Shown: positions 33,781 to 54,243, counted from the first letter of the stretch. The stretch: DNA of 64,000 nt from Candidatus Angelobacter sp. (GCA_036380095.1 DASVFK010000250.1:24125-88124); one strand, 5' to 3'. Notes: generated by a model from the sequence alone, not told the origin. Numbers and translations: made by a program.

Positions 33781-33825
33781 GTGATTAAAGAATTTAATGT
33801 GTGCAAGGCATATCACAGAGGTGAT
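33781..33825 (+). promoter_or_regulatory. GTGAT-N26-ATCAC-N4-GTGAT element upstream of large paralog 1
   Basis: The same GTGAT-N26-ATCAC spacing and the inner AATTAATGTG-like core (here AATTTAATGTG) recur at 37735..37770 and 43360..43395. Confidence 0.45.
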
Positions 33826-34295
33826 GTGACCGGCACTTCATATACGAAAGCAATAATCAGGATGCGAGTGCGGTGCCGCGCACTTTCAATCTTCAATCTC
33901 AACTGAGGTTGGTGGCGGTTGCGTAACTCGCAGATTCCTTCACCAGCCCTGAACCCGGGTGCGATACAGATGTAGGTTGCACGTATCGGCGGCACACCCG
34001 GCCCGCGGCAGTCCACGGAACAGAGAGCGCTTTCGGACCCAGCTTGGCGATTCGCCAGGCATATACACCTCTTTGTCCCAAAACTGCCACGAACTTCGCA
34101 GCCCAGGCCCTTAGTCGACCGAACCCAGGATTTTCCAGATTCAGGACTTTGTCCACGACCTGCTTTGTTCAGACGAGCAAATGTGCGCGTGATTGACGTG
34201 AAGAGAAATACGGATGAGAGAGATTGCGGGCCCGGGAACCCGGAATCTCAAACGCGACATTCTCGAATCTTGCAAAAAGGACGGAAACTTTCGAA

Positions 34296-37200
34296 ATGAG
34301 CTCGCAATCCACAAATAGGGCACGACCCTCGTGTACTCCCAAGAACAGAATCGCTCTTTGCCTGATCTTGCTGTTGATCGGGTTGCTTGCCATGGCGGGG
34401 ACCGCTGTGGCGCAATTGCCGATGCCGGCATCCACTCAGTTTGACATCACTGGTTTTATTCAGGAAGCCACGCTGGATCCCACATGCACCGCCAACGCGC
34501 ATTGCGGCGGCACCATCTTGGTCAACGGTCACAACGTGATTGTGCCCAAAGAGACTATCGTGATCCTGCCCGCCAATGCTCTGACCTGGCAGGAAGTCTT
34601 CGCCCAGGCGCCCGCGCCCTATGGGCTGCTGACCAATCCGCCTTCCAGCGGACTTGCCATGTCGGATCTGCCTGCGCCGTTGGCTACGTACGAAGCACAA
34701 GTGATTGGCAACCGCGTGATCACTGGCGGAAATGACCGCTACATCGCGGGTTTGATCTACATCTCGCAGCAAGGTTTGAACATCGGCAGCGGGTTCATCA
34801 ACTTCATCAACTACGCCACGGGCGAAATGCGCGTGGGCGGCATTCTGGGAAATTCCGCTACCGGCGCGCGCGTGCAAATCAACGATCCGGTGGGACGCTT
34901 CGGCCGGGTGGTCTCGCCTGACGTGCGCTTCACTGTAGACCCGGACAATCCGACCATCGCCAGCTCCACCGGCTTCCCCATGTGCGTGCCGCGTGTGGAT
35001 CCTGCGGCGGTGATCGATCCTCTGTGCCCGCAGACGCAGCGGCCCGGGGCAATCCCTCCTGCAGTCGGCTTTGCTTCGGTGATTCAGACGAACGATCCGG
35101 GAGCTTTGCCGGGCGTTCCGCCTGACGCAACGATCCAAGTTCCGTTCGAAGTAGGCGACTGGATCACCTTTGCGGGAACCCTGGTTGCCGATCCTGGCTT
35201 TACCGCTGGTCCCACGGCTGGTCCATGGCCGGGCAAGGCGAACACCTACATTTCCGCGCATACCATTTCCAACAACGTTGCCGTGTACACCTGGCCCAAC
35301 ACCAATCCGGCCTATGTGGCGACGGAAGTCACCATCATCGGCACCGGAGGTTTGACGGTCATCGGCGCCGGCGAAGCGGTGATTCGCACACGCTTTGAAG
35401 GCATGACCACCGACGTAAACCAGAACGCGGCCCTGCAGCGGAACATTCATCTCTACGGGATCGATCTGAATCCTGGGGACGGTTCTACGACAGACCGTGA
35501 CTGGGGAACCATCGGCGTGGATCCTGGACCGCCCAACGGCGCGGTCAAAGGCCGTTGGCGCTTCCGCCCGCCGTGCTTGCCCTTCGGCTCAGTTCCAACC
35601 AAGCCTGACAAAGACTGCGTGATGAACGCATCTGGCACCTTCCTGCCTCCGACGCGCGAAATGCGTGCCGTAATCGAAGGCGCATGGACCCCGGCAGGCC
35701 CGCAAACAACGTATGCCAACGGGATCATCGCCGGGCAGTACCACGCTCCGATTTTGGAGTACATCTTCCCAGAAAACGTGCCCGGTGCGCCCATTGTCGA
35801 GAACAACTTCAACTCCATCCCCTTCCTGGCCCAGGGCGGATATACGTCCTCAGCAGGAACACTGGTGGGGCAGCTCAATCCCTGGCCCAGCAACATAGTT
35901 CCGGCGCCGTTCTGCGCTGCGCCTACGGCTAGCGCCGGCGGTCCTTATAGCACTGGTTCCGGCGGAACGGTCGCGTTGAACGGCACTTCGGGTGGCACAG
36001 GTCCATTCACCTTCGCATGGACGGCAAACGCAGGCACGTTTGACAATGCCGGTGTGTCCAACCCGAACTTCACGGCGCCGCAGACCGCCGTGGGCACAAC
36101 GGTAAACCTGTCTTTGACTGTAGCCAACGCCTGCGGGAGCTCCACCGCGACCAGCACGGTTGCGGTCAGCGCGGCTTTGGCGCCAACGGTTAATCCCATC
36201 GCACCGCAAACCGTGGATTCCGGATCGGGCGGCAGCTTCTCTGTCACGGCCTCTGATCCCAACGTTCCGCCCGCGGTGCCGCTGACCTGGTCGGTAAGCC
36301 AGAGCGGTACGCCCGCCCTGCTCAACCTGGCCATCAGCTCCGGCGGAGCCACCTCGGCGAGCGTGACCTTTACCGCGCCGTCCGGTGTGATCACGCCCAC
36401 GAACATCACCGTCACCGTGACGGCGACGAACACTGCCGGCGTGTCCTCCGCGCCGGTCTCCACCACCGTGACCATCAATCCAGCGGTTGCCTGTAACGCG
36501 CCAGTAGCCAATGCCGGCGGTCCGTACACGGTTTCTTCTGGAGGCTCGATTACGCTGAACGGTAGCGCTACCGGGTCAACGCCTCTCACCTTTATCTGGG
36601 CGGCGCCTGCTCAAGGCACGATCAACCCGCTGGACGCCGCTACATCGACCTACACGGCGCCCGTGACTCCGGTTCCGTTAGACGTAACGGTGTCACTCAC
36701 GGCGGCCAACGGCTGCGCTGGCAGTCCGAATACCGCCAGTGCAAATGTCCACGTCAACGCGGCACTGCCGCCGGTGGTCAATCCCGTGGCGGCCATCTCG
36801 GTGCCGGTGAATACGTCGAATGTGAGCATGCTGGTCACCGCCATTGATCCCAACGTTCCGGCGCTGACGCCGCTTACCTTCACCGTAACCCAGACTCCGG
36901 CCGGAACTCTGCAGTTCCCATCCGCTCTCTGCCCTGGTGGAGTAACGCAAGGAAACTTGTGTGTGACACCTGCGGGGCCAACCTCGGCGAACATAACCTT
37001 CAACGCTCCGGCTACACCCACTACGGTGACGCTGAGCTTTACGGCCATCAACGCTGCTGGTGTGGCTTCGGCGCCGGTAACCACTACGGTGACCCTCACC
37101 GACGTGTTCAACATCACGGCGGCGGAGTACCGGATCGGCAAGCAGCGGTTGATCGTTAACGTCACGGATCTTACCGTGGACCCAACCATCCAGATCTTCC

Positions 37201-37472
37201 TGCAGCCTTACCGCTGCGAAGTCAACGCGGCGCCTTGCGCTCCGAACGCTCAAGGCATCTGGATGTATAACCCTGACCCGGCAGCTGGCGGAGTCGGCAA
37301 CCTCTTCACCGGCGGCGCTGGTGGCCTCTACATCATCGACGTTGTAGGAGCGCCGAAGCCGGCCTGCAACCTCAATGCAAACTACGCGACCCCGTGCGGT
37401 ACGGTGTCCATCAGTGCGGTGTCCTCGAAGGGTGGGGCGGCATCGTCCGCGCTCACCAGGATCCGCCAGTAA
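34296..37472 (+). CDS. large secreted protein, paralog 1: Cys-rich N-terminal domain of unknown family + 2x(PKD-like + Ig-like) + conserved C-terminal domain
   Basis: ATG 34296 gives a signal peptide (...LILLLIGLLAMAGTAVAQ). The mature N-terminus LPMPASTQFDITGFIQEATLD is shared with the other two paralogs. PKD-like ANAGGPYTVSSGGSITLNGSATGS, and a C-terminal ...ALTRIRQ. Confidence 0.85.
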   Translation: MSSQSTNRARPSCTPKNRIALCLILLLIGLLAMAGTAVAQLPMPASTQFDITGFIQEATLDPTCTANAHCGGTILVNGHNVIVPKETIVILPANALTWQEVFAQAPAPYGLLTNPPSSGLAMSDLPAPLATYEAQVIGNRVITGGNDRYIAGLIYISQQGLNIGSGFINFINYATGEMRVGGILGNSATGARVQINDPVGRFGRVVSPDVRFTVDPDNPTIASSTGFPMCVPRVDPAAVIDPLCPQTQRPGAIPPAVGFASVIQTNDPGALPGVPPDATIQVPFEVGDWITFAGTLVADPGFTAGPTAGPWPGKANTYISAHTISNNVAVYTWPNTNPAYVATEVTIIGTGGLTVIGAGEAVIRTRFEGMTTDVNQNAALQRNIHLYGIDLNPGDGSTTDRDWGTIGVDPGPPNGAVKGRWRFRPPCLPFGSVPTKPDKDCVMNASGTFLPPTREMRAVIEGAWTPAGPQTTYANGIIAGQYHAPILEYIFPENVPGAPIVENNFNSIPFLAQGGYTSSAGTLVGQLNPWPSNIVPAPFCAAPTASAGGPYSTGSGGTVALNGTSGGTGPFTFAWTANAGTFDNAGVSNPNFTAPQTAVGTTVNLSLTVANACGSSTATSTVAVSAALAPTVNPIAPQTVDSGSGGSFSVTASDPNVPPAVPLTWSVSQSGTPALLNLAISSGGATSASVTFTAPSGVITPTNITVTVTATNTAGVSSAPVSTTVTINPAVACNAPVANAGGPYTVSSGGSITLNGSATGSTPLTFIWAAPAQGTINPLDAATSTYTAPVTPVPLDVTVSLTAANGCAGSPNTASANVHVNAALPPVVNPVAAISVPVNTSNVSMLVTAIDPNVPALTPLTFTVTQTPAGTLQFPSALCPGGVTQGNLCVTPAGPTSANITFNAPATPTTVTLSFTAINAAGVASAPVTTTVTLTDVFNITAAEYRIGKQRLIVNVTDLTVDPTIQIFLQPYRCEVNAAPCAPNAQGIWMYNPDPAAGGVGNLFTGGAGGLYIIDVVGAPKPACNLNANYATPCGTVSISAVSSKGGAASSALTRIRQ

Positions 37473-37632: not shown

Positions 37633-37920
37633 GCCGATCGCTGCCCTAGTCTCCTGGACCCGCCACCGAATCTCTCCATGGATTTTCCACCTAGTTTCTT
37701 TTGTGATCACGAATGCAAAGGCGGGACTACACATGTGATCAGAAGAATTAATGTGGGTAAGGCATATCACGCACATGAGTTGGACTGCCCTTTTATAACA
37801 GCGAGAGAAAGCGGCGCCACCAATTGATGAGGAGTTTTTGGATGAGACAAGTGTTTGTTGCACCAAGTGTCGCCGGCTTGTATCAGGTTGAAAATACGGC
37901 AGGGTCTTGTCCGTGAAGTT

Positions 37921-37936
37921 TGTGATCTTAATCACG
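37921..37936 (+). promoter_or_regulatory. CRP/FNR-type palindrome TGTGA-TCTTAA-TCACG
   Basis: Matches 9 of 10 positions of the classical TGTGA-N6-TCACA consensus. An identical site lies at 43562..43577 in the paralog 3 leader. Confidence 0.4.
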
Positions 37937-38202
37937 CAGGAGCGTGATGAGGGACACAGCAGGACCTTCTCTGGTCTGTCACAGTATGCGACCAAGTTAG
38001 ACAGATAAACCTGTTTTAGAAAGTGCCCAGAAGTAAAGCGCCACTGAGAACTCACGGCTGATTTTACCTCCGCGATCCCTTGGCGGTGCTGGTGCCCCAG
38101 GAACACAAGAAATAAGAAACGCGCCTGCACGTGCAGTGGTTTGTTTTCCGGGTTCGGCTGCAACGTGCGTAGGGAAGGTGCGATACGCGCTGGAACTTCC
38201 GG

Positions 38203-38218
38203 GGACAGGCAACTGTCC
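38203..38218 (+). ncRNA. leader hairpin GGACAG-GCAA-CTGTCC (GNRA tetraloop)
   Basis: The paralog 3 counterpart at 43832..43847 is GGACAT-GTAA-ATGTCC. The loop-closing pair changes G-C to U-A in a compensatory way, and the loop stays GNRA. Confidence 0.5.
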
Positions 38219-38280
38219 TTGTTCACAGTCGTTGAGCATTCGCACCTCCATGCAAATTTTTCTGAGACGGAGCGACTGCA

Positions 38281-41200
38281 ATGACAACGACGGGAAAGCT
38301 GTACTCTACCCCTGCCCCCAAAAAAGCTGAAAAGCATCTTCCGGGGCCCTCGACAAGAAAACTTTTTCTCACCCTCATCGCGGTGATTCTGCTTGTCACC
38401 TATGCCGGCGCGCAATTGCCCATGCCGGCCTCCACCCAGTTTGACATCACCGGGTTTATCCAGGAGGCCACGCTGGACTCCAGTTGCACGGCCGATCCGC
38501 ACTGCGGCGGCACCATCAAGCTCAACGGCCACACGATCATCGTGCCGAAAGAAACGATCGTGATATTCCCGGCCAATGCGCTGACCTGGCAGGAAATCTT
38601 TGCTCAGGCACCGGCGCCGTATGGTCTGCTGACGAACCCACCTTCCACTGGCTTGGCCAGAGCCGATTTGCCGGCGCCTTTGACCACGTATGAAGCGCAA
38701 GCGGTGGGCAACCGTGTCCTTGGCGGCCCCGCGGGCGCTGACTTGTACATCGCCGGTTTGATCTATATCTCGCAGCAAGGCCTGAACACGGGCAGCGGGT
38801 TCATCAACTACATCAACTACGCCGCGGGCGAAATGCGCGTTGGCGGCGCCTTGGGAAATCCCACCGACGGCGCGCGCGTTCGCATCAACGATCCGGCGGG
38901 CCGCTTTGGGCGGGTCATGTCGCCGGACGTGCGCTTCACCGTAGACCCGGACAATCCGACCATCGCCAGTTCCACAGGATTCCCCATGTGTTTCCCGCGG
39001 GTCGATCCTGCGACGGCGGTGGATCCTTTGTGCCCGCAGAGTCAGCGCCCGGCGGCTGTAGCCCCCGCAGTCGGCTTTGCCTCCGTGATTCAGACGAATG
39101 ATCCTGGTGCGCTGCCAGGTGTTCCGCCCGATGCAACCATTCAGGCGCCGTTCGAAGTAGGAGACTGGATCACTTTTTCGGGCACGCTGGTGCAAGATGG
39201 GTTAACGCCTACGGCAGGGCCGTTCCCCGGAACCGCCAACACCTACATCTCCGCGCACACCATTTCCAACAACGTGGCCGTGTTCACCTGGCCCAACACC
39301 AATCCCGCCTACGTCTCTATCGAGACGACCCTGATCGGTACCGGGGGGTTGATCGTGCTGGGTGCTGGAGAAGCCGTCATCCGCACTCGTTTTGAGGGCA
39401 TGATGACCGATGTAAACCAAAACGCGGCGTTGCAGCGGATCATCCACCTGTACGGCGTCGACCTGAGCCCGTTCGATGGCTCGACGACGGACCGCGATTT
39501 TGGCACGATCGGCGTAGATCCTGGCCCGCCGAACGGCGCCAACAAGGGACGTTGGCGTTTCCGTCCGCCGTGCCTGCCCTTCGGCACAATTCCCACCAAG
39601 CCGGACAAAGACTGCGTGATGAACGCGGCCGGCACCTTCCTGCCTCCGCCGCGCGAAGTGCGCGCGGTGATTGAAGGCGCGTGGATCCCGGGACAGACAA
39701 CCACCTATGCCAACGGGATCATTGCCGGTCAATACCATGCTCCGATTTCGGAGTACATCTTCCCGGAGAATATTCCCGGCACACCGATTGTTGCTAATAA
39801 CTTTGAAGCCATACTTTTCCTGACCCAGGGCGGATATACATCATCGGCGGGGACGTTGGTGGGCCAACTCAACCCCTGGCCTGGTCTCTTCCCGCCGCCG
39901 GTGGGTGACGCGCCGCCGGTTGCCAACGCAGGTGGTCCGTACACCGTCGGTTCCGGCGGAACCATCGGACTAAGCGGCACCACCACAGCCGGCACGGCGC
40001 CATTTACGTACCAGTGGACGGCAAGCGCAGGAACTTTCGACAATGCAACCCTGGCCAACCCGAACTATACGGCGCCACAAACCGCCTCGGGAACAACAGT
40101 TAACCTGTCATTCACGGCAACCAATGCCTTCGGGACCTCAACGGCGAACACGACCGTAACTGTCAATGCCGCATTGGCTCCCGTGGTGAACCCGATCGCG
40201 CCCACCTCGGTCACTTCAGGCGACGCGGGCACCATCACCGTAACCGCATCTGATCCCAACACGCCGCCGTCTGTGCCGCTCACCTGGACCGTGAGCCAGA
40301 CGGGCAATCCTCCGCTGATCAATCTGGCGATCAATCCCAGCGGACCTGCCAGCGGAGTGATCACTTACACCTCCAAGTCCGGTGTGAGCACTCCCACGGA
40401 CATCACTGTCACCGTTACTGCGAGGAACGCCGCAGGTGTGTCATCAGCGCCGGTCTCCACTACGGTCACCATCAACCCGGCGGGTCCAGTCTGTAACGCG
40501 CCTGTCGCCAATGCCGGTGGTCCATACACGGTTGGCGCAGGAGGCTCCATCGTGCTGAGCGGCAGCGCCACTGGATCTCCGGCCATCACTTACTCCTGGA
40601 CGGCAACTGCCGGCAGCTTTACCTCGGGTAACAATACCGCCACGCCCACCTACAAGGCGCCTGTCGTCCTGGCGCCAACAGCGGTCACGGTGTCACTGAC
40701 GGCAACGAACAAGTGCGGCCCCGGCGGCACGAACATCTCGAATACCGCGAGCTCCACGGTAACGGTGAACGCAGCGCTGCCTCCCACGGTGAATCCCGTG
40801 ACGGCGGTTTCAGTGTTCTCCGGCGCCGCGGGCAGCATCAACGTAACCGGTTCCGATCCCAATGTTCCCGCCATGGTGCCATTGACCTGGACGGTGTCCC
40901 AGACCGGAGCCCCGGCCCTGCTTAACCTGATAATTACCTCGACTGGATCGACGACGGCAAGGATCAACTTCACTGCTCCGACCCTGCCGGTTGGCCAGGT
41001 GACGCCCGCGGTGATCACGTTGACCATCACGGCCAGGAACACGGCTCCTTTGAACTCGGCGCCGATCACCACTACGGTCACCGTCAACCCGTTGCCTGAT
41101 GTCATCGCCATTACGTCCGCGGAGTACAGGACCGGCAAGCAACGGCTGATCATCAACGCAACTTCGTCGGTTGTCAGCCCCAACGTGGTCCTGAAACTGC

Positions 41201-46900: not shown

Positions 46901-47053
46901 GGCGTCTTGACCGTTGACATCAGCGGCGCCCCGGCTCCGGCCTGCGGCAACCCGGCGGGCTATCAAACGCCTTGCCCGACGGCCCCGCTGGACATCAAGT
47001 CCAACATCGGCGGTGATAGCGGGTTCTTTGCGTTGACCCGCATCCGCCAATAA
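43913..47053 (+). CDS. large secreted protein, paralog 3
   Basis: MTTTGRLPSTFAPTT...FLTLIAVILLVSYAGAQ then LPMPPSTQFDITGFIQEATLD. Same architecture; ends ...ALTRIRQ. Confidence 0.9.
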   Translation: MTTTGRLPSTFAPTTIGKYLTGPSTRNFFLTLIAVILLVSYAGAQLPMPPSTQFDITGFIQEATLDSTCTADAHCGGTIKLNGHTIVVPKETIVIFPANALTWQEIFAQAPAPYGLLTNPPSTGMALADLPAPLSTYEAQAVGNRVLGGPAGADLYIAGLIYISQQGLNSGNGFINFINYTTGEMRVGGQLGNPADGARVRLNDPVGRYGRVISPDIRFTVDPDNPTITGSSGFPMCLPRVDPAIAVDPLCPQTQRPAAIAPAVGFASVIQTNDPVALPGVPPDATIQVPFEVGDWISFAGTLVQDGLTPTAGPWPGTANTYISAHTITNNVAIFTWPNTNPAYTRTDVTIIGTGGLIVLGVGEAVIRTRFEGMMTDVNPNPALQRIIHLYGIDLNPADGSTTDRDWGTIGVDPGPPLGANKGRWRFRPPCDPFGTIEAKPDKKCVMNQSGTFLPPTREVRSVIEGAWTPGGPQTTYANGIIAGQYHAPILEYIFPENIPGAPIVENNFNSIPFLAQGGYTSSAGTLVGQLNPWPSNIIPPPFCANITAVSAGGPYTVGSGGTIPLTSTTNGTGPFTYSWVASAGTFDNASVANPNFTAPQTAAGTTVNLSLTVSNACSSVPATSTVTVNAALAPTVNPIAPQNVISGNAGGFTVSGSDPNVPASVPLTWSVSQTGPIALQNLVIASTGATTASVTYNAPAGVLVATDVTVTVTATNVAGVASAPVSTTVTINPANNCIAPVANAGGPYTVGAGGSISLNGSATGTTPITFAWAPPAQGTINPLSSPTATYTAPVVLVQTVVPLSLTATNSCGSNTATSQVTVNAALPPTMNQPANVSVFSGAAGSFTISGSDPNVPPLVPLSFTVTQNPAGTLANLTVTPGPNPPGTGATVTFTAPTLPVNVATNTVVTLTITATNTAPLTSAAVTMTVTVKPLPDLITPLSAEYRTGKQRLIVTASTSNAGATLKLQPYLTTTGSTYNPDPAAGGLGNTFVLVNGVLTVDISGAPAPACGNPAGYQTPCPTAPLDIKSNIGGDSGFFALTRIRQ

Positions 47054-47218: not shown

Positions 47219-48091
47219 ATGAAAACCCTCTGCAGATTAGTGACCCTAACCACGATGCTAGCGGCGGTCCTGGCGATGAGCGTCCAGGTGTCCGCGCAAG
47301 ATCCGCCGCCCGGCCAGCCCATTCTGTTGGGCACCACCGGTGCATGCTTCAACGCCAATCAAGGCGGCCTTTGCACCCAAACCAGCACGCTGGTGCAGAT
47401 CGATCCCTCCACCGGCGCACTGATCAAGACGATCGGCCCGGTGGGCTATACCGTCAACGGGCTGGCTTGGGACCCCACCACCGACAAGCTGTACGCTACA
47501 ACCGCCGCGGGCGATGTGAGCTTCCATGGCCTGATTACCATTGACCCCAATACGGGACAGGGCACGCCCGTGAATCCACTTGCCGTCAATTATGGGCTGG
47601 ATCCCACTTCTCCTGTCCACTCCATCACCATCGACTCCAATGGCAACGCCGTTGGGTGGTATGACGAGTTCGGATCGGGAGTTACCGATACCTTTGTCAC
47701 GTTCGATAAATCCACCGGCTTCGCCACCGAGTTCAACAACACCGGGATCAACACCGGCCAGAACGGGCTTGCCTTCGCCAAGCATGACCTGCTGTGGAAC
47801 ATTGATAGTCCCAAGTTTGTAAACGGCGGTTTGACGCAAACGGCCTACCTGCTCGATCCCACGAATGGACATCCGCTGGATGAAAGGGATGTGACTCCAC
47901 CAACAGCAGCGGCACTGGGCGATTTCGATCCCGTAGGCAATCAGTACTACGGGCTGAACTTCGATACGTCCACCCCCGGGAGCGGGACATACCTGGTGGC
48001 GATCAACCTCAAGAAGGGCACCGTGACCACGGTGGGGCAGACGGTAGACGGCCTGCATGTAATCGCGTTCGTGAAACACAAATTGATCTAG
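47219..48091 (+). CDS. secreted repeat protein, beta-propeller-like, small paralog 2
   Basis: ATG 47219 follows AAGGAGCAAGGAG. MKTLCRLVTLTTMLAAVLAMSVQVSAQ then DPPPGQPILLGTTGAC. The track start at 47147 adds a non-homologous extension. Confidence 0.8.
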   Translation: MKTLCRLVTLTTMLAAVLAMSVQVSAQDPPPGQPILLGTTGACFNANQGGLCTQTSTLVQIDPSTGALIKTIGPVGYTVNGLAWDPTTDKLYATTAAGDVSFHGLITIDPNTGQGTPVNPLAVNYGLDPTSPVHSITIDSNGNAVGWYDEFGSGVTDTFVTFDKSTGFATEFNNTGINTGQNGLAFAKHDLLWNIDSPKFVNGGLTQTAYLLDPTNGHPLDERDVTPPTAAALGDFDPVGNQYYGLNFDTSTPGSGTYLVAINLKKGTVTTVGQTVDGLHVIAFVKHKLI

Positions 48092-48368: not shown

Positions 48369-49262
48369 ATGAAAACACTAATATGGAGATCAGCAACACT
48401 AGCCTTAATACTCAGCGCGGCGGTCCTGGTGGGAGTTATTCCCCAGGCGTCCGCACAGACCCCGCCGCCCGGCCAGCCAGTTCTTTTGGGCACCCTCGGT
48501 GCGTGCGATAACGTCGTTCAAGGCGGTCCCTGCACCCACACGAGCACACTGGTACAGATTGACCCAGACACCGGAGCACTGGTCAAGACGATCGGTCCGG
48601 TGGGTTTTACGGTCAACGGCTTGGCTTGGGACATGACGACCAACAAGCTGTACGCCACAACCGCCGTGGGAGATGTGAGTTTCCATGGCCTGATCACCAT
48701 TGACCCCAATACCGGACAGGGTACACCCGTGAATGCAAGCGTCAACAATTACGGATTGGACGTCACGCCTGGAACCCTGGGTTCTCCCGTCCACTCCATT
48801 ACCTTCGATTCCAATGGCAACGCCGTTGCGTGGTATGACGAGTTTCCGCCGCCGACGGGAGTCACCGATACCTTCGTGACGATCAATAAAGCCACCGGCA
48901 TCGCCACCGAGTTCAACAACACCGGGCTCAACACGGGCCAGAACGGGCTCGCCTTCGCCAAGCATGATCTCCTGTGGAACATCGACAGTCCCAAGCTTGT
49001 GAACAATGTTGTGACGCAAACGGCCTACCTGCTCGATCCCACGAATGGACATCCGCTGGATGAAAGGGATGTGTCTCCGCCAACGGCAGCAGCCCTGGGC
49101 GATTTCAATCCCGTAGGCAATCAGTACTATGGCCTTAAATTTACGGTCTTCAACCCCACGACTTTCCTGGTGGTGATTGACCTGAAAAAAGGAACGGTGA
49201 CCACGCTAGCGCAAACGGTGGATGACTTGCATGTGATCGCATTCGTCAAACACCTCCCATGA
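48369..49262 (+). CDS. secreted repeat protein, beta-propeller-like, small paralog 3
   Basis: ATG 48369 follows GAGGAGCTTAAGA, the same RBS context as 41918. MKTLIWRSATLALILSAAVLVGVIPQASAQ then TPPPGQPVLLGTLGAC. The track start at 48117 adds 84 non-homologous residues. Confidence 0.8.
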   Translation: MKTLIWRSATLALILSAAVLVGVIPQASAQTPPPGQPVLLGTLGACDNVVQGGPCTHTSTLVQIDPDTGALVKTIGPVGFTVNGLAWDMTTNKLYATTAVGDVSFHGLITIDPNTGQGTPVNASVNNYGLDVTPGTLGSPVHSITFDSNGNAVAWYDEFPPPTGVTDTFVTINKATGIATEFNNTGLNTGQNGLAFAKHDLLWNIDSPKLVNNVVTQTAYLLDPTNGHPLDERDVSPPTAAALGDFNPVGNQYYGLKFTVFNPTTFLVVIDLKKGTVTTLAQTVDDLHVIAFVKHLP

Positions 49263-49950
49263 GATCAAAGAAGTAAGGATTAGATTGATGCAGTTTTACC
49301 TCCAGACCCAATTAACCCCAAGGGCTGCCGAGTCAAAGCAACTCGGCGGTCCCCTCCCATGGGCTCACCAGACCACCAGGGCCGGGAAAGAGAGGTCATC
49401 GAAGCCGGTCATGGATTGACACTCGACACGCATGGAGCGACTCAAATGGGGCACAGAAATGCTGGCTTTATTGTTCCGGAATGCGCTTCCAGAGCGCGGC
49501 TCGCAGAGTCCGGCTTAGTGGGTTTCGCCACCGGCAGATTACATCGTGAGAAAGTTAGTTTTTTGCGCCTGGCTGGTCCAACCATTGAAATTAACGCCGC
49601 ACCCGTGACGCGGGTCACATACAACTGCGACCTCACACTGATAATGTGCCGCTACTCAACAAGCTTGAACACTGAACTTGTTGCAAGCTCCTCTTCCGGG
49701 GAGATTCGACTTGATTTCGAACGAGTCTCAGCGGCACGTAACCTGCCTGGAAGAACTCCAAAAGAAGAAGTTGCGCGGCTGCGCGAATTGCCAGCCGCAA
49801 GCAGGGCCCCATCGCGGGTCAAGGGAACAAGTACGTGCGGGGTTCGTACAGCAGCCCCTGGATTAGATACGCGAAACCACCGGTCAGGCAGCGAGAAAAT
49901 CAAAGCCGGCCAATACAACAACAGTCGACACTTTAAGGAGCGCAGCCAAT

Positions 49951-52209
49951 ATGAAGCACAGAGAAGATGGTTTTTTCCTTCCGGAAACCGCCTCTCGGGC
50001 CCGTATCAGAGAGGCAGAGAACGCACGCAAGAACCGGCAAGAAATTGTTAAGGCCTACTCACAAGGCCAGGTAACACGCCGTGACCTGATCAAGTGGGGT
50101 CTGATCACCACGGGCGGACTTCTGGCGCCCATCCATGGCCTGAACCCGTTCGTCAAAAGCGCCTACGGCAGCATTCCCACGGGCGCGAATCCCAGCCCGC
50201 TGTTTGGGGCACAGCCATTTACACAAGCCATGCCGCGGTTTGATTTGCTGGCGCGGCTGCCGTTTGGTGGGCGCCAGACGCTGAGTCCCACGCCGACGGC
50301 CCAGGCCAACACCACGTTGCAGCCGGTCGACCCGCTTTTGGGTGGCGGCTTCGGCCCCATTGAAGGCCGTCCTCCGGGACCGGTGTGGGCGCACCAGGCG
50401 TTCACCCAGTTCCCGCCGCAGATTGCCATCGAAGCCACGCAGCAGGGTAACAAGGGACCCAATACCACGTACAATCCCGGCGTTGCCTCAAACTTTAACT
50501 CCGGCATCAATCCGGCGACGCCGATTCCGCTGACCTTCCACCCGAACTTTCCCATCCAGGCCGAGAACTCGGTGTGGACCTTCAACGGAACAGTCCCGCC
50601 CAAGCTGGCTATGGGCCGCTATGGCGAACCGATCCTGTTCCGTCACCACAACGGCTTGCCGGCTGACGTGACGCTGAACAACGGCTTCGGCCGCAATACC
50701 ATCAGCACCCACGAGCACAACGGCCATCATGGCGCGGAGAATGACGGCTTTACCGGCGCCTTCTTCTTCCCCAACCAGTTCTATGACTATCACTGGCCGA
50801 TCAAGCACGCGGGATTCACCAGCATCAACACCGGAGCGACCGATCCCAGGTGCGGAGCGCCCGATGGCAACGGCGGCATCACCAAGCTGCCGGGTGATTG
50901 GCATGAGACCATGAGCACGCACTGGTTCCACGATCACATGTTCAGCTTTACCTCGCAGAACGTGTACAAGGGCAATGCTGCCATGTTCAACATGTACAGC
51001 TCGCTCGATCGCGGGAACGAGGCGCTCAATGACGGTGTGAACCTGCGCCTGCCTTCCGGCAAAAACCTCGACTGGGGAAATCTCGAATATGACGTGAATC
51101 TCCTGGTCAACGAGAAAGCCTTTGATGCCACCGGACAGTTGTACTTTGACATCTTTGACTTCGACGGGTTCCTGGGAGACGTGATGTGCGTCAACCTGGC
51201 CTACAAGCCGTACTTCGAAGTGGAACACCGCAAGTACCGCTTCCGCATCCTCAACGGCAGCGTCTCGCGCTTCTTCAAGATCTGTTGTGTGGACGCTACA
51301 GGCACCGCCGTCCCGATCATTCAGATCGGCAACGACGGCAACCTGCTGCCGAACCCGGTGACCCTCACGCAACTCGATGAGCAGGGCATCGCCGAAAGGT
51401 ACGACATTGTCATCGACTTTACGGCCAACAGAGCTAAAGTCGGCGACAAATTCTGGCTGGTAAACCTGTGCGAACACCAGGACGGCAAGAAGCCTTCCGC
51501 GGACCTGTCCATTGCGGACGCTCTCGCGGGCAAATCCAACGATCCCTGCATCGGCAAGTTCCTGGAGTTCCGTATTGTGCGGAATCCAGCCACTGCCGAC
51601 AAGAGCGTGGTGCCCAACGTCCTGATTCCGAACCCAGACCTCTCAGCCATCCCGGTGGCACGTACCCGGGTGTTTGAGTTCAACAGTGGAGCTCAGCAGA
51701 ACCCGAACCTGTTGAACGACCCAAGCTGCTTTGTCACGGGCGCCGGCGGCCAGTCAGGCCCCTGGGGCGTCAAGACCGATAACCAGGGACCCACGTATGA
51801 CGCTTGCTTCGGCCGCATCTCCGGTGCGCCGCAGTACGGCACGCGCGAGGTGTGGGAACTGCGCAACGGTGGCGGCGGTTGGGACCATCCCATCCACATC
51901 CACTTTGAAGAAGGCCAGGTCCTGGCCCGCAACGGCAGCGCCGCCAACGTGCCGGCGTGGGAAAAGGGCCGCAAGGATGTATATCGCCTGCGTCCCAGCG
52001 GCAGCGTGACCATTACCATGCAGTTCCGCGATTGGGGCGGCATGTTCATGGAGCATTGCCACAATACCGTGCATGAAGACAACGCCATGCTGGTGCGCTG
52101 GGAGACCCAGAATGCGGGAACTCCGTTCCTGTATCCGCTCCCGACGCCGATTCCGACACCGCAGGGCGTTACCTTCCAGCCCGTGAGTGAAATCCTCCCG
52201 ACCGCGTAA
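49951..52209 (+). CDS. Tat-exported multicopper oxidase (CotA/bilirubin-oxidase-like)
   Basis: Twin-arginine signal TRRDLIKWGLITTGGLLAP. The four copper-binding motifs are HEHNGHHG, HWFHDH, HPIHIHFEEG and HCHNTVHEDNAM. RBS AAGGAG. Confidence 0.9.
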   Translation: MKHREDGFFLPETASRARIREAENARKNRQEIVKAYSQGQVTRRDLIKWGLITTGGLLAPIHGLNPFVKSAYGSIPTGANPSPLFGAQPFTQAMPRFDLLARLPFGGRQTLSPTPTAQANTTLQPVDPLLGGGFGPIEGRPPGPVWAHQAFTQFPPQIAIEATQQGNKGPNTTYNPGVASNFNSGINPATPIPLTFHPNFPIQAENSVWTFNGTVPPKLAMGRYGEPILFRHHNGLPADVTLNNGFGRNTISTHEHNGHHGAENDGFTGAFFFPNQFYDYHWPIKHAGFTSINTGATDPRCGAPDGNGGITKLPGDWHETMSTHWFHDHMFSFTSQNVYKGNAAMFNMYSSLDRGNEALNDGVNLRLPSGKNLDWGNLEYDVNLLVNEKAFDATGQLYFDIFDFDGFLGDVMCVNLAYKPYFEVEHRKYRFRILNGSVSRFFKICCVDATGTAVPIIQIGNDGNLLPNPVTLTQLDEQGIAERYDIVIDFTANRAKVGDKFWLVNLCEHQDGKKPSADLSIADALAGKSNDPCIGKFLEFRIVRNPATADKSVVPNVLIPNPDLSAIPVARTRVFEFNSGAQQNPNLLNDPSCFVTGAGGQSGPWGVKTDNQGPTYDACFGRISGAPQYGTREVWELRNGGGGWDHPIHIHFEEGQVLARNGSAANVPAWEKGRKDVYRLRPSGSVTITMQFRDWGGMFMEHCHNTVHEDNAMLVRWETQNAGTPFLYPLPTPIPTPQGVTFQPVSEILPTA

Positions 52210-52317: not shown

Positions 52318-53274
52318 ATGCGACGGAAGACTTGGGCGGCAGCAGCCACGTTCCTGGCGGCAGCGACCATTGTGTTGTGCATGCGCCCGGCGCAGGCCGA
52401 CTCGCGCTGGGGCGCCAATTATTTCCCCAACGTTGAGTTGACCGACCAGAACGGCGAAAAGCACCATTTTTATGACGATCTGCTCAAGGGCAAGATCGTG
52501 GTCATTGAACAGTTCTATACCCACTGCATTGATATCTGTCCGCTGGAAACCGCGCGCCTGGCCCAGGTGCAGAAAATGCTGGGCGACCGTGTGGGCAAAG
52601 ACATCTTTTTCTATTCCATCAGCATTGATCCAAAGCGCGACACTCCGGAAGTAATGAAAGCCTACGCGGAGACGTATCACGTTGGCCCCGGCTGGCTTTT
52701 TCTCACCGGCAAGAAAGAAGACATCGACTTAATCAATAAGAAGCTTGGCTTTCAAGACCCGCAACCGGGCGACCGTGACGGTCATTCGCCCCACCTGCTG
52801 ATTGGCAATGAAGCCGCCGGGATGTGGCAGCGCAACAACGCGCTGGACAACCCGCGCTATATGGCGGTGATGATCGGCGATTGGATGAACAGTTGGCGCA
52901 GCGCCAAGCCCATGACCACCGGCACGAGCTATACCGAAGCCGGCGCGATCAAGGGCTATGATTCGGGCAAGTACCTGTTCTTTACCCAGTGCGCGCCCTG
53001 CCACACCATCGGCGAGGGCGAATCCATCGGGCCGGACTTGCGCGGCGTCACCAAGGTCCGCGACCCCAAGTGGCTCCGCAAAATCGTGCAGACCCCAGAG
53101 GACTTGCTGGACAAGGGTGATCCCCTGGCCACAGCCATGCTTGCCAAGTACAAGAACGTGCGTATGCCCAATCTGCATTTCGATGAGGAAGCCACGGACG
53201 CGCTGATCGGCTACATGGACCGGCAGAGCGCCGCGGTCACAGCGAAACAGATGAAGGAGGAGCGATCGCAATAA
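52318..53274 (+). CDS. SCO1/SenC copper chaperone fused to a C-terminal mono-haem cytochrome c domain
   Basis: Signal/anchor, SCO motif YTHCIDICP (CxxxC) with a downstream His (GHSPHLL), and a C-terminal CAPCH haem-binding site with distal MPN. Confidence 0.85.
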   Translation: MRRKTWAAAATFLAAATIVLCMRPAQADSRWGANYFPNVELTDQNGEKHHFYDDLLKGKIVVIEQFYTHCIDICPLETARLAQVQKMLGDRVGKDIFFYSISIDPKRDTPEVMKAYAETYHVGPGWLFLTGKKEDIDLINKKLGFQDPQPGDRDGHSPHLLIGNEAAGMWQRNNALDNPRYMAVMIGDWMNSWRSAKPMTTGTSYTEAGAIKGYDSGKYLFFTQCAPCHTIGEGESIGPDLRGVTKVRDPKWLRKIVQTPEDLLDKGDPLATAMLAKYKNVRMPNLHFDEEATDALIGYMDRQSAAVTAKQMKEERSQ

Positions 53275-53322
53275 TTTTGCTTCCGTCCCGCCCCTTTGGT
53301 TTTCTGCGGGGCTGAAGACAGG

Positions 53323-54243
53323 ATGGATGTTGTGGAGCGCAGCCAACGCTGGCGCTCCGGGACTTGTCCCCCGGAGCGCCGCGGCTTTTTTGGCGGACTT
53401 GATACAATCACAGTCGTGACGCCGGATAACGCAGCTACGCGCCAGCCTGCCCCGCGCCGCCGCAACGGCTTGCTCTGGGCGGGAGGGCTTCTCATCGTTG
53501 TTGCTTTGCTGAGCAACATACTCTTTTTCCTGCGCCTTCCTGGCCAGGCCATTTTTCCCTGGCTGAACCTGGCGCTGTTCGTGGTTCCCGTGGTCCTGCT
53601 GGTGATGGGGCTCAGGCGTGCCATCACCCAGCCGGAGACTTACCGCGGCAAGGCCGGAGGCTGGATTCTGACCGCGCTGTCCGTCTTGTTGCTTGCCTTT
53701 GCGGTATTCGCGTTCTACAAGTCGCGCGACATTCCCAATGCCGCCAGCGCTCCCAAAGTCGGGGCCAAAGCGCCTGATTTTGTCCTTCCAGACACCAGCG
53801 GCCGGTCCGTGGGACTCAGCGACTTGCTCTCCATGCCGATGGACAACGGCGCGCCACCCAAAGCCGTGCTGTTGGTTTTCTATCGCGGCTACTGGTGACC
53901 GTTCTGCAACTCCGAGTTACGGGGCATCGAAAAGCAGTTGGCGGAATTCAGGAACGCCGGCGTCCGGACGGCCGCCATCAGTGTGGATCCGCCGCAAACC
54001 TCGGCGGAACTCTGCAAGCGCGCAGGCTACACCTTTACGTTTCTCTCAGATCCCTCGAGGGAAGCTACCCGGCGCTACAACCTGCTCCATCGCGGCGGCG
54101 GGCCCGACGGGAGTGACATTGCGCGGCCCGCGGAGTTTCTGGTGGACTCCGCCGGCATAGTTCGCTGGGTGAACTTCGCCGAAGACATTCGCGTTCGCGC
54201 CCGGGCACAGGAGATGCTCGCGGCGGCGCAAAGCATCCAGTAA
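53323..54243 (+). CDS. membrane-anchored thioredoxin-fold redoxin (AhpC/TSA-TlpA superfamily), predicted selenoprotein with Sec at TGA 53896..53898
   Basis: Track ORFs 53296..53898 and 53938..54243 share one frame. Read-through gives VLLVFYRGYW-U-PFCNSELRGIEKQLAEFRNAGVRTAAISVD, the W-C-P-x-C active-site context. Three N-terminal TM helices. The start codon is uncertain (ATG 53323 or TTG 53296). Confidence 0.7.

What the first reader, a model, noticed from the sequence alone, without database searches (positions are those of the whole stretch)
33781..54243. Uncharacterised extracellular gene island: three giant secreted paralogs, three beta-propeller-like secreted paralogs, then a Tat multicopper oxidase / SCO1-cytochrome c / seleno-redoxin operon
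All of the roughly 20 kb on one strand encodes exported proteins. There are three ~1050-aa paralogs (34296, 38281, 43913) with long identical stretches (LPMPxSTQFDITGFIQEATLD, VPKETIVIxPANALTWQExFAQAPAPYGLLTNPPS, C-terminal LTRIRQ). There are three ~290-aa paralogs (41918, 47219, 48369), so the counts are 3:3 although the order is large / large-small / large-small-small. A copper-oxidase module follows immediately. I cannot place the N-terminal ~500-aa domain of the large proteins or the small proteins in any family. The large genes each carry their own long leader and their own terminator, so the duplication copied complete regulatory units. Co-localisation with an MCO and copper-loading genes suggests an extracellular oxidative function (metal, phenolic or polymer oxidation) or a surface-layer function. 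That is inference only.
Basis: partly seen in the sequence, partly recalled or inferred. Interest (0 to 1): 0.8.

Follow-up and report, generated by a model that had tools for sequence, protein, structure and literature searches.

The report
Unknown secreted proteins beside copper oxidase
A soil acidobacterium carries three copies each of two secreted proteins of unknown function next to a copper-oxidase operon; the large protein's 500-residue head matches no annotated family or solved structure, occurs in at least six phyla, and often sits beside copper-oxidase genes, so it probably works with an extracellular oxidase.

Summary
On the + strand, 34296-54243 encodes three ~1050-aa paralogs (68-74% identical), three ~290-aa paralogs (73-76%), a Tat-signal multicopper oxidase (MCO) with all four copper motifs, a SCO1-cytochrome c fusion, and a membrane redoxin with an in-frame UGA at the first Cys of its CxxC motif.

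The large protein's ~500-aa N-terminal domain has no Pfam or NCBIfam hit. Its AlphaFold model (pTM 0.79) has no significant Foldseek match in the PDB. A profile of the domain finds 1114 clusters (50% identity), and homologs span six phyla. The small protein is a beta-propeller of the YVTN/YncE type.

Synteny is real. An MCO lies within 10 kb in 17 of 31 fully flanked genome loci, across five phyla. SCO1, MauG-like di-haem peroxidases, a LuxR-type two-component system and (in Burkholderiales) a type II secretion system (T2SS) recur nearby. The link is facultative in both directions.

The wider family keeps no His or Met ligands, so the head domain is probably not a classical copper centre.

My best reading is a secreted partner or substrate-handling component of an extracellular MCO system, resembling IoxA/IoxC or Mnx. 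Its function is unproven, and I could not test homology to IoxC.

The parts
33612..34295 (+). Upstream region (leader or promoter) of large gene 1. The upstream dehydrogenase gene ends with a terminator-like hairpin at 33709-33735.
   Evidence: The region is 78% identical to the equivalent region of the syntenic relative L089. It shares only a short GTGAT...TTAATGTG block with the leaders of copies 2 and 3.
34296..37472 (+). Large secreted paralog 1 (1058 aa): signal peptide, ~500-aa unknown N-domain, PKD/Ig-like repeats, ~110-aa C-terminal domain ending LTRIRQ.
   Evidence: The ATG at 34296 gives a complete signal peptide. The public annotation (P0010, 1026 aa) starts later.
37700..38280 (+). 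Conserved upstream region of large gene 2. Contains the palindrome TGTGATCTTAATCAC at 37921-37935.
   Evidence: 72% identical to 43330-43912. The palindrome occurs twice in the window against 0.05 expected. It occurs again upstream of a Large gene in L089. No conserved ORF.
38281..41439 (+). Large secreted paralog 2 (1052 aa). Residues: signal 1-45, N-domain 46-544, PKD-like 545-630, Ig-like 631-738, PKD-like 740-831, Ig-like 832-940, C-domain 944-1052.
   Evidence: Identical to public protein VF532_15570 of a Candidatus Angelobacter genome assembled from a metagenome (MAG).
41918..42802 (+). Small secreted paralog 1 (294 aa), beta-propeller.
43330..43912 (+). Conserved upstream region of large gene 3. 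Contains the palindrome at 43562-43576.
43913..47053 (+). Large secreted paralog 3 (1046 aa).
47219..48091 (+). Small secreted paralog 2 (290 aa), beta-propeller. This is the sequence used for the AF2 model.
48369..49262 (+). Small secreted paralog 3 (297 aa), beta-propeller.
49263..49950 (+). Conserved non-coding region upstream of the MCO. It holds the inverted repeats GTGAC-N4-GTCAC and CACAyTGnTAATGTG. The overlapping ORF 49359-50051 (230 aa) is probably spurious.
   Evidence: The region is 68-73% identical in at least seven other loci, but the ORF is not preserved (it is split across frames in L025). The predicted product has no Pfam hit and an Arg/Ser-rich composition. RNAalifold gives no covariation support.
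49951..52209 (+). Tat-signal multicopper oxidase (752 aa).
   Evidence: Pfam Cu-oxidase_2 at 1e-16. NCBIfam PhsA and CueO, partial matches. Bilirubin oxidase and CotA are the nearest solved structures, 9e-41. Four copper motifs and an RR motif.
52318..53274 (+). SCO1/SenC copper chaperone fused to a mono-haem cytochrome c (318 aa).
   Evidence: Pfam SCO1-SenC at 2e-22 and Cytochrom_C at 4e-7. CIDIC and CAPCH motifs. The same gene follows the MCO in L002, L025, L044, L089 and L098.
53296..54243 (+). Membrane-anchored AhpC/TSA-type redoxin with an in-frame TGA at 53896-53898 in place of the first Cys of CxxC (candidate selenocysteine).
   Evidence: The Pfam AhpC-TSA match is split across the stop. 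The sequence reads GYW-TGA-PFC. A hairpin lies 11 nt downstream, but its folding energy is not significant.

Best explanation
The region is a tandemly amplified version of a conserved extracellular copper-oxidase module.

Shown:
- The core is a Tat-signal multicopper oxidase with its dedicated SCO1-cytochrome c copper-delivery protein.
- Upstream are secreted 'Large' proteins: an unknown, strongly conserved ~500-aa beta-rich head, a PKD/Ig stalk and a conserved C-terminal domain.
- In this acidobacterial lineage each Large gene tends to be followed by a secreted 'Small' beta-propeller gene.

Inferred mechanism:
- SCO1-cytochrome c loads or reduces copper for the oxidase after export.
- The oxidase reduces O2 while oxidising an extracellular substrate.
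- Large, with Small where present, acts outside the cell as a partner of the oxidase. It could be a co-subunit or a component that captures and presents substrate. This would resemble IoxC with IoxA in iodide oxidase, or MnxE/F with MnxG in manganese oxidase.
- The head domain keeps no His, Met or Cys ligand set across the family. It is therefore more likely a binding or acid/base (Asp/Asn/Arg/Tyr, possibly Ca2+-dependent) module than a copper centre.
- The three copies have diverged most in the stalk and C-terminal domains. That fits variants with different targets or attachment.

The substrate (Mn(II), Fe(II), halide or phenolic polymer) is not determined.
For: 1. Anatomy and paralogy.

2. 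Unknown but real family:
- No Pfam, NCBIfam or PDB match.
- AF2 pLDDT 77.6 and pTM 0.79, with no Foldseek hit at E<=0.001 in the PDB or BFVD.
- More than 1100 homologs, all named 'hypothetical', with the N-domain 55-70% identical.
- 1114 clusters at 50% identity match the N-domain profile.
- dN/dS is 0.11.

3. Synteny:
- Large-Small-MCO-SCO1cyt recurs at 65-90% identity in L002, L025 and L098, and in many soil contigs.
- The syntenic relative L089 has Large-Large-MCO-SCO1cyt at the same chromosomal site.
- An MCO lies within 10 kb in 17 of 31 fully flanked genome loci. These come from Acidobacteriota, Pseudomonadota, Actinomycetota, Chloroflexota and Myxococcota. My own rough expectation by chance is 1-2%.
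- SCO1 is present in 15 loci, and a MauG-like di-haem peroxidase is present in 16 loci, next to Large in most of them.
- A distant 29%-identical N-domain-only homolog in Roseomonas sits beside SCO and cytochrome c genes.

4. Secretion: dedicated type II secretion clusters flank the module in Cupriavidus, Herbaspirillum and Paraburkholderia.

5. Precedents from the literature:
- IoxA and IoxC co-purify; the cluster has SCO1 genes and flanking gsp genes (PMC9415286).
- MCO-MofC-SCO1 clusters (PMC5566968).
- A cupredoxin/SCO1/cytochrome cluster induced on magnetite, with similar clusters reported in Paraburkholderia and Anaeromyxobacter (PMC12016527).
Against: - The association is facultative. 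Of 82 Large loci, 54 hold no MCO in the DNA held, and among Myxococcota the count is 13 of 14.
- Three further MCO-SCO1 pairs of the Cupriavidus type lack Large.
- The syntenic relative L090 has Large but no MCO.
- There is no evidence of physical interaction. Co-folding could not be run.
- Homology of Large to IoxC or to Slit_1816 could not be tested, because neither sequence was obtainable.
- No conserved metal ligands were found, and fusions give no catalytic clue.
- The neighbourhood also fits mere co-regulation by the adjacent LuxR-type two-component system.
Confidence: 0.45

Rival explanations
1. Large is an independent secreted enzyme or binding protein. It might be a Ca2+-dependent polymer-degrading or polymer-binding module displayed on an Ig/PKD stalk. 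On this view it only shares a regulon or genomic island with the copper oxidase and has no physical or mechanistic coupling to it.
For: - Most loci lack an adjacent MCO.
- Some loci place Large next to M28 and M2 peptidases (L001) or MsrA/MsrB (L005).
- The residues conserved across the family are Asp, Asn, Arg, Tyr, Glu, Gly and Pro, with no His or Met.
- Fusions are only to Ig, cadherin, PKD and CarboxypepD_reg domains, as is typical of secreted hydrolases and binding proteins.
- A LuxR-type response regulator sits directly upstream in many loci.
Against: - The enrichment of MCO, SCO1 and MauG-like genes next to Large across five phyla is far above chance.
- A distant N-domain-only homolog keeps SCO and cytochrome c neighbours even without an MCO.
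- No similarity to any known hydrolase or lyase fold was found.
Confidence: 0.27
2. Large is itself a redox enzyme. Its cofactor would be installed by the neighbouring maturation genes: SCO1 for a metal, and the MauG-like di-haem peroxidase for a protein-derived quinone or cross-link. The methanethiol oxidase MtoX with SCO1 and MauG is the model. The MCO would then be a second enzyme of the same pathway.
For: - A MauG/RoxA-like protein of 700-870 aa lies immediately beside Large in 14 to 16 loci from Acidobacteriota, Burkholderiales, Geobacter and Kofleriaceae.
- The Roseomonas homolog sits with SCO and cytochrome c but no MCO.
- The mtoX-SCO1-mauG arrangement is a precedent (PMC5739008).
- Tyr344 (83 of 85) and Tyr485 (78 of 85) are nearly invariant across the family.
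Against: - No conserved His, Met or Cys ligand set exists for copper.
- The window itself has no MauG-like gene.
- In the reverse look-ups SCO1 follows the MCO, not Large.
Confidence: 0.13
3. The island is a copper-stress or copper-homeostasis locus. Large would be a surface protein that binds or sequesters copper, and the MCO would act as a CueO-like cuprous oxidase.
For: - In seven acidobacterial loci (L035, L039, L043, L045, L047, L048, L054) Large is followed by a MauG-like gene and an MCO. In six of them CusB/CusA-like RND efflux genes follow as well.
- SCO1 and the MCO are copper proteins.
- NCBIfam gives a partial CueO similarity.
Against: - Large has no His-, Met- or Cys-rich motifs and no conserved ligands.
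- The strongly conserved 500-aa fold is unlike known copper-sequestering proteins.
- The window has no efflux genes.
Confidence: 0.08
4. Large and Small are structural cell-surface proteins (surface layer or adhesin) with no enzymatic role.
For: - Ig/PKD repeats and multiple tandem paralogs.
- Signal peptides and a conserved C-terminal domain that could serve in attachment.
Against: - The head domain is 50-60% identical between phyla and has dN/dS 0.11. I take this to be unusual for surface-layer proteins or adhesins.
- The same architecture occurs in both monoderm and diderm phyla.
- The neighbourhood is consistently redox- and copper-related.
Confidence: 0.07

Closest known systems
Iodide-oxidising enzyme IOX of Iodidimonas sp. 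Q-1 and Roseovarius sp. A-2 (ioxABCDEF; IoxA MCO plus IoxC)
   Same: An extracellular MCO co-purifies with a ~71-kDa protein of unknown function (IoxC). SCO1/SenC genes lie in the cluster. Type II secretion (gsp) genes flank it (PMC9415286). In Cupriavidus and Herbaspirillum the order MCO(~580 aa)-SCO1-Large mirrors ioxA-ioxB-ioxC, with a T2SS alongside.
   Different: The window's MCO is 752 aa against a 62-kDa IoxA, and only 36-39% identical to the Cupriavidus ~580-aa type. The window has one SCO1-cytochrome c fusion rather than three SCO1 genes. Homology of Large to IoxC is untested because no IoxC sequence could be obtained.
Mnx manganese oxidase complex of Bacillus sp. PL-12 (MnxG MCO with MnxE/MnxF; MnxC SCO1-like)
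   Same: A multi-subunit extracellular MCO with non-MCO accessory subunits and a SCO1-like gene in the operon (my own knowledge; cited in PMC12016527 as reference 60).
   Different: The accessory subunits are small (~12 kDa) and unrelated in sequence. No homology was detected. The Mnx system is spore-surface associated.
OmpB/MofA clusters (Geobacter sulfurreducens ompB; Leptothrix mofABC)
   Same: A secreted MCO is encoded with a cytochrome c-domain protein (MofC) and, in Geobacter, a SCO1/SenC chaperone. OmpB export depends on an atypical T2SS (PMC5566968).
   Different: OmpB and MofA are much larger MCOs (over 1300 aa, my own knowledge). No Large- or Small-type genes are described there.
Sideroxydans lithotrophicus ES-1 cluster Slit_1812-1818
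   Same: It combines a cytochrome, SCO1/SenC, small hypothetical proteins, two MCOs and one larger non-MCO protein described as having adhesin- and lyase-like domains. The products are predicted extracellular and are induced on magnetite. Similar clusters are reported in Paraburkholderia and Anaeromyxobacter, taxa in which I found Large-MCO-SCO1 loci (PMC12016527).
   Different: The authors describe Slit_1816 as cupredoxin-containing, whereas the Large head gave no cupredoxin match. Sequence identity with Large could not be checked.
mtoX-SCO1-mauG operon (copper-dependent methanethiol oxidase, SBP56 family)
   Same: A periplasmic oxidase is encoded with a SCO1 chaperone and a MauG-like di-haem protein (PMC5739008). 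Large is flanked by SCO1 and MauG-like genes in many loci.
   Different: MtoX keeps conserved His ligands, and Large does not. There is no sequence relationship. The window lacks a MauG-like gene.
YVTN/YncE-type beta-propellers (and Pfam DUF4394, DUF6923)
   Same: The Small protein has five DPxTG-type strand-turn-strand repeats. It gives weak hits to YncE, DUF4394 and DUF6923. Its model is a beta-propeller.
   Different: All sequence hits are far below the curated cut-offs. By repeat count it has about five blades, against seven in YncE. Foldseek TM-scores are only ~0.5 to six-bladed Kelch domains.

Membership tests
Multicopper oxidase (three-domain, CueO/CotA/bilirubin-oxidase type): gene 49951-52209 | Four copper-binding motifs: HxH, HxH, HxxHxH and HCHxxxHxxxxM. 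| tested here: met
   HEHNGHH (from residue 254), WFHDH (327), HPIHIH (649) and HCHNTVHEDNAM (702).
Multicopper oxidase (three-domain, CueO/CotA/bilirubin-oxidase type): gene 49951-52209 | Profile match to cupredoxin MCO domains above the curated threshold. | tested here: met
   Pfam Cu-oxidase_2 scores 61.3 bits against a cut-off of 20.4. PDB bilirubin oxidase matches at 9e-41. The N-terminal domain was not detected by Pfam, and about 200 extra N-terminal residues remain unexplained.
Tat-exported protein: MCO | Twin-arginine motif S/T-R-R-x-F-L-K followed by a hydrophobic stretch. | tested here: met
   QVTRRDLIKWGLITTGGLLAP at residues 40-60, read from the sequence. No dedicated predictor was run.
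SCO1/SenC copper chaperone: gene 52318-53274 | Thioredoxin-like SCO1 domain with a CxxxC motif. | tested here: met
   Pfam SCO1-SenC scores 80.2 bits against a cut-off of 22.8. The CIDIC motif is present.
Class I cytochrome c: C-terminal half of 52318-53274 | CxxCH haem-binding motif and a profile match. | tested here: met
   CAPCH motif. Pfam Cytochrom_C scores 31.6 bits against a cut-off of 21.3.
Selenocysteine-containing AhpC/TSA redoxin: 53296-54243 | An in-frame UGA aligned with the catalytic Cys of homologs. | tested here: met
   The AhpC-TSA profile match continues across the stop (profile positions 1-37 before it and 53-123 after it). The sequence reads GYW-TGA-PFC.
Selenocysteine-containing AhpC/TSA redoxin: 53296-54243 | A bacterial SECIS hairpin downstream of the UGA, and selA/selB/selC/selD in the genome. 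| tested here: inconclusive
   The hairpin CUCCG-AGUUA-CGGGG starts 11 nt after the UGA, but the fold z-score is only -0.76. The window has no tRNA-Sec. The rest of the genome was not available.
PKD / bacterial Ig-like repeats: middle of the Large proteins | A profile match above threshold. | tested here: inconclusive
   Only sub-threshold PKD_4, Ig_3 and LapB_rpt hits were found. NCBIfam myxo_dep_M36 aligns at 2.8e-24 over residues 544-936 of copy 3, far below that family's whole-protein cut-off. Homologs carry K319L-like_PKD hits.
Any Pfam, NCBIfam or PDB family: N-terminal ~500-aa domain of Large | A significant sequence or structure match. | tested here: not met
   No Pfam or NCBIfam hit at E<=0.1 falls in residues 46-544. 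PDB phmmer gives nothing there. Foldseek against the PDB gives a best E of 0.03 with TM below 0.2. Foldseek against BFVD gives a best E of 0.006.
IoxC (partner protein of iodide oxidase) | Sequence homology to IoxC of Iodidimonas sp. Q-1. | not testable with these tools
   No IoxC sequence was available. Only gene order and T2SS context resemble the iox cluster.
YVTN/YncE beta-propeller: Small proteins | A profile match above threshold and a beta-propeller fold. | tested here: inconclusive
   YncE scores 13.8-17.9 bits against a cut-off of 400, and DUF4394 scores 23 bits against 29.6. The fold is a beta-propeller in the AF2 model (pTM 0.80), with Foldseek probability 1.0 to Kelch propellers and TM ~0.5.
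Classical copper protein (type 1, 2 or 3, or CuA): N-domain of Large | A conserved His, Cys or Met ligand set. | tested here: not met
   Across 85 diverse representatives no His or Met is conserved. His326 is present in 59 of 85 and His486 in 28 of 85. The only conserved Cys are the pair C237 and C251, which I take to be a disulfide.

The most novel reading that the evidence does not exclude
The ~500-aa head of Large is a new protein fold. It would define a previously unrecognised and phylogenetically widespread class of multi-component extracellular copper-oxidase systems: an MCO, a dedicated SCO1(-cytochrome c), a Large partner, and optionally a propeller, a MauG-like haem protein or a T2SS. 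IoxA/IoxC iodide oxidase would be the only biochemically studied member. Such systems would carry out metal or halide oxidation by abundant soil bacteria such as Acidobacteriota.
Probability: 0.3. Interest if true: 0.8.

Novelty: new variant of a known kind. Interest (0 to 1): 0.6.

Why it matters
Secreted multicopper oxidases drive manganese, iron, iodide and phenolic/lignin oxidation in soils and waters. The multi-subunit forms (Mnx, IOX) are poorly understood, and their accessory subunits have no family assignment.

This locus exposes a very large, strongly conserved and entirely unannotated secreted protein family. A profile of its head domain finds 1114 clusters at 50% identity, and members come from at least six phyla, including cultured Cupriavidus, Paraburkholderia, Terrabacter, Humibacillus and Methylomicrobium. 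The family is repeatedly wired to MCO, SCO1, cytochrome c, MauG-like and T2SS genes.

If Large is an MCO partner, that would give a genomic marker for a class of extracellular oxidases in dominant soil phyla. It would also give cultured, and probably genetically workable, organisms in which to test the idea. If Large is not a partner, it is still a good target for structure determination, because the confident model has no match in the PDB.

Tried and rejected
1. IoxC link. I tried to reach Iodidimonas sequences in three ways: homolog names, cluster look-ups of ten representatives of 646-721 aa, and papers. No sequence was obtained, so the link remains untested.

2. Copper-enzyme idea for the head domain. 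I rejected it as the leading model because no His, Met or Cys ligands are conserved across 85 diverse representatives.

3. MopE/CorA-type copper-binding proteins (recalled from memory because of the adjacent di-haem peroxidase). No PDB sequence or fold match of any kind was found.

4. Domain-fusion hints. Longer family members carry only Ig, cadherin, PKD and CarboxypepD_reg domains.

5. ORF 49359-50051 as a gene. I rejected it: there is no family match, the composition is implausible, and the frame is not preserved in homologous loci.

6. Structured RNA in the leaders. Rfam found nothing. RNAalifold on eight MCO leaders gave an unfavourable covariation term of +2.42, and only 5 of 51 pairs showed compensatory change. 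The 90-aa ORF in the leader of copy 3 is not conserved in copy 2.

7. SECIS. The fold energy is not significant, and the window has no tRNA-Sec.

8. Methylomicrobium lacus locus. It has no copper genes nearby; there is an IS200-like transposase upstream.

9. Phage or viral structural similarity: none.

Full report
**1. What is in the sequence**

The + strand from about 34.3 to 54.2 kb carries nine convincing genes.

Three encode ~1050-aa proteins: 34296-37472, 38281-41439 and 43913-47053. They are 68-74% identical along their full length.

Three encode ~290-aa proteins: 41918-42802, 47219-48091 and 48369-49262. They are 73-76% identical.

Three further genes follow:
- A 752-aa multicopper oxidase (MCO, 49951-52209). 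It has a twin-arginine motif and the four canonical copper motifs.
- A SCO1/SenC-cytochrome c fusion (52318-53274; motifs CIDIC and CAPCH).
- A membrane-anchored AhpC/TSA redoxin (53296-54243). Its reading frame holds a TGA exactly where the first Cys of CxxC belongs (GYW-U-PFC).

The second large protein is identical to hypothetical protein VF532_15570 of a Candidatus Angelobacter genome assembled from a metagenome (MAG; Acidobacteriota).

The paralogs are old: dS is 0.5-1.0. They are under purifying selection. dN/dS is 0.11 for the N-domain, about 0.3 for the PKD/Ig region, 0.16-0.48 for the C-domain and 0.21-0.26 for the small proteins.

**2. Architecture of the large protein**

Taking copy 2 as reference, the layout is (motif positions read from the sequence):
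- Sec signal peptide, residues 1-45. The mature end LPMPxSTQFD is conserved across the family.
- N-terminal domain, 46-544.
- Two PKD-like/Ig-like pairs, 545-940.
- A ~110-aa C-terminal domain ending LTRIRQ, 944-1052.

Pfam and NCBIfam give no hit at all in the N-domain. The repeats give only sub-threshold Ig, PKD and LapB hits. No solved structure matches the N-domain by sequence.

I built an AlphaFold2 model of residues 46-544 from a 58-sequence alignment. It is fairly confident (pLDDT 77.6, pTM 0.79) and nearly all-beta. Foldseek finds nothing at E<=0.001 in the PDB; the best hit is 0.03, TM-scores are below 0.2, and the hits are fragmentary OB-fold-like pieces. Nothing is found in BFVD either.

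**3. Size and spread of the family**

More than 1100 homologs were found. All are named 'hypothetical', and the N-domain is 55-70% identical among the listed ones.

An exhaustive profile search of the N-domain found 1114 clusters (50% identity) at E<=1e-3 and 374 at E<=1e-30. Their lengths range from 500 to over 1500 aa.

Genome hits come from six phyla:
- Acidobacteriota.
- Myxococcota.
- Desulfobacterota.
- Chloroflexota.
- Actinomycetota (Terrabacter, Intrasporangium, Humibacillus).
- Pseudomonadota (Cupriavidus, Herbaspirillum, Methylomicrobium lacus).

Further Pseudomonadota homologs lie on Paraburkholderia megaplasmids.

Across 85 diverse representatives (37-70% identical to the window protein) the near-invariant residues are Gly, Pro, Asp, Asn, Arg, Tyr, Glu and Thr. 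No His or Met is conserved. The only conserved Cys are one pair, which I take to be a disulfide. This argues against a classical copper site in the head domain.

Longer family members add only Ig, cadherin, PKD and CarboxypepD_reg domains.

**4. The small protein**

488 homologs were found, again all named 'hypothetical'. There are weak, sub-threshold hits to DUF4394, DUF6923 and YncE.

The AF2 model (pLDDT 80, pTM 0.80) is a beta-propeller. Foldseek matches six-bladed Kelch domains at E about 1e-8 and TM about 0.5. By eye the sequence holds five xxIDPxTG-type repeats, so I count five blades, with six not excluded.

**5. Gene neighbourhood**

- Large-Small-MCO-SCO1cyt recurs in L002 and L025.
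- A metagenome scan anchored on Small shows that close Small homologs (65% identity or more) are almost always preceded by a Large gene and followed by the MCO. L098 is an example: Large-Small-leader-MCO-SCO1cyt.
- More distant Small homologs mostly lack Large. Some of them directly follow a different MCO type, as in L166.
- In 31 genome loci with full 10-kb flanks on both sides, 17 hold an MCO. Over all 82 loci the count is 28. These loci come from five phyla.

Other recurrent neighbours:
- SCO1 (with or without cytochrome c), 15 loci.
- A 700-870-aa MauG/RoxA-like di-haem peroxidase, present in 16 loci and next to Large in most of them.
- A LuxR-type response regulator with a HisKA_3 kinase, in Acidobacteriota and Actinomycetota.
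- CusB/CusA-like efflux genes, in six acidobacterial loci.
- A dedicated type II secretion (T2SS) cluster, in Burkholderiales.

A 29%-identical homolog on a Roseomonas gilardii plasmid consists of the N-domain only. It lies next to SCO and cytochrome c genes with no MCO.

The link is facultative.
- Most myxobacterial loci lack copper genes.
- Three further MCO-SCO1 pairs of the Cupriavidus type have no Large.
- Two syntenic relatives carry different loads at the same chromosomal site, downstream of the acyl-CoA dehydrogenase and 3-hydroxyisobutyrate-dehydrogenase-like genes.
  - L089 has two Large genes, the MCO, SCO1cyt, a Large remnant and a second MCO.
  - L090 has one Large gene and no MCO.

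The tight pair is therefore MCO-SCO1. Large is a frequent, non-obligatory companion, and its copy number is dynamic.

**6. Regulatory regions**

The 580 bp upstream of copies 2 and 3 are 72% identical. That looks higher than I would expect for unconstrained sequence, given dS of 0.8-1.0 in the coding regions; I did not compute a neutral expectation. They contain the palindrome TGTGATCTTAATCAC, which resembles a CRP/FNR site by my reading. It occurs twice in the window against 0.05 expected, and again upstream of a Large gene in L089. The leader of copy 1 differs.

The ~690 bp upstream of the MCO is conserved in at least seven other loci. It holds two inverted repeats. RNAalifold gives no covariation support, and Rfam finds nothing.

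I read these regions as promoter and operator sequence, possibly with 5' UTR. ORF 49359-50051 is probably spurious.

**7. Mechanism**

Shown: a Tat-signal MCO with an adjacent SCO1-cytochrome c; secreted Large and Small proteins; conserved co-localisation.

Inferred: SCO1-cytochrome c matures the oxidase, and Large (with Small) works with it outside the cell as a co-subunit or a substrate-handling component.

Precedents from the literature:
- IoxA and IoxC co-purify in iodide oxidase. The cluster has SCO1 genes and flanking gsp genes (PMC9415286).
- Mnx manganese oxidase (my own knowledge).
- OmpB/MofA clusters with MofC and SCO1 (PMC5566968).
- A cupredoxin/SCO1/cytochrome cluster induced on magnetite in Sideroxydans, with similar clusters in Paraburkholderia and Anaeromyxobacter (PMC12016527).

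In Cupriavidus and Herbaspirillum the order MCO(~580 aa)-SCO1-Large beside a T2SS mirrors ioxA-ioxB-ioxC. I could not obtain an IoxC or a Slit_1816 sequence, so homology is untested.

The rivals are:
- an independent secreted enzyme or binding protein that is merely co-regulated;
- an enzyme bearing a cofactor matured by MauG and SCO1, as with mtoX (PMC5739008);
- a copper-homeostasis protein;
- a structural surface protein.

**8. Verdict**

Its central inference, a functional tie to the copper oxidase, is now supported by cross-phylum synteny. The function remains unknown.

Relative to known systems this is a new variant of a known kind: a multi-component secreted MCO cluster. It is built around a large protein family with no annotation and, so far, no structural relative.

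Noticed in passing
window 53896-53898 (within 53296-54243, + strand): The in-frame TGA replaces the first Cys of the CxxC motif of a membrane-anchored AhpC/TSA redoxin (GYW-U-PFC). A hairpin CUCCG-AGUUA-CGGGG starts 11 nt downstream. This is a candidate selenoprotein, but the SECIS fold is not significant and the window has no tRNA-Sec.
   Followed up: partly
window 37921-37935 and 43562-43576; L089 9647-9660 and 17634-17647: A near-perfect palindrome, TGTGATCTTAATCAC(A/G), lies about 350 bp upstream of large genes 2 and 3 and of a Large gene in a related genome. It resembles a CRP/FNR-type operator. It occurs twice in the window against 0.05 expected.
   Followed up: partly
window 49263-49950: The long non-coding region upstream of the MCO is conserved at 68-73% in at least seven loci. 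It holds the inverted repeats GTGAC-N4-GTCAC and CACAyTGnTAATGTG and an invariant 12-bp long-range complementarity (CTCTTCCGGGGAG with CCTGGAAGA). There is no covariation, so whether it acts as an operator or as RNA is unresolved. A TAATGTG motif also occurs in the Large leaders.
   Followed up: partly
L089 17560-18310: In a syntenic relative, the SCO1-cytochrome c gene is followed by a Large leader. After that comes a collapsed Large remnant (start codon region joined to the C-terminal ...LNGDSGPLELT). A second MCO copy follows. This is evidence of unequal recombination between repeated units.
   Followed up: partly
window 55490-56374 (- strand): A DehI-family haloacid dehalogenase-like gene lies 1.2 kb downstream of the island (Pfam DehI, 2.9e-24). 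This may be coincidental, but it is notable given the iodide-oxidase analogy.
   Followed up: no
L084 7699-9191 (Roseomonas gilardii plasmid pRo-1): A distant homolog consisting of the N-domain only is annotated as two overlapping ORFs, which suggests a frameshift or an annotation split. It lies directly after SCO and cytochrome c genes and a 616-aa protein with no Pfam match.
   Followed up: partly
L092 (Limimaricola variabilis plasmid) 546-14234: A 765-aa MCO, a 333-aa SCO family protein and a histidine kinase/response regulator pair lie divergent from a 2301-aa gene annotated as 'peroxidase family protein', which sits next to a type I secretion permease. Large is absent. The large secreted peroxidase recalled manganese-oxidising MopA to me; I did not test this.
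   Followed up: no
L005 12734-14020 (also L006, L007): In one acidobacterial lineage, Large is followed directly by the methionine sulfoxide reductase genes msrA and msrB. These repair oxidised methionine, which hints at an oxidising environment around this protein.
   Followed up: no
window 19539-28030 and 58579-60930: The flanks encode other secreted or degradative proteins: a CHAT-TPR protein, two S8 subtilases, an M28 peptidase and a PKD/ChitinaseA_N-domain protein. The M28 peptidase, a 528-aa unknown protein, an acyl-CoA dehydrogenase and a dehydrogenase are syntenic with L089, and the last three also with L090.
   Followed up: partly
L166 68-2641; L143 and L144: Divergent homologs of the Small propeller (60-63% identical) lie directly downstream of, or near, a different MCO type (27-28% identical to the window MCO) with no Large gene. 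The propeller-MCO link may therefore be independent of Large.
   Followed up: no
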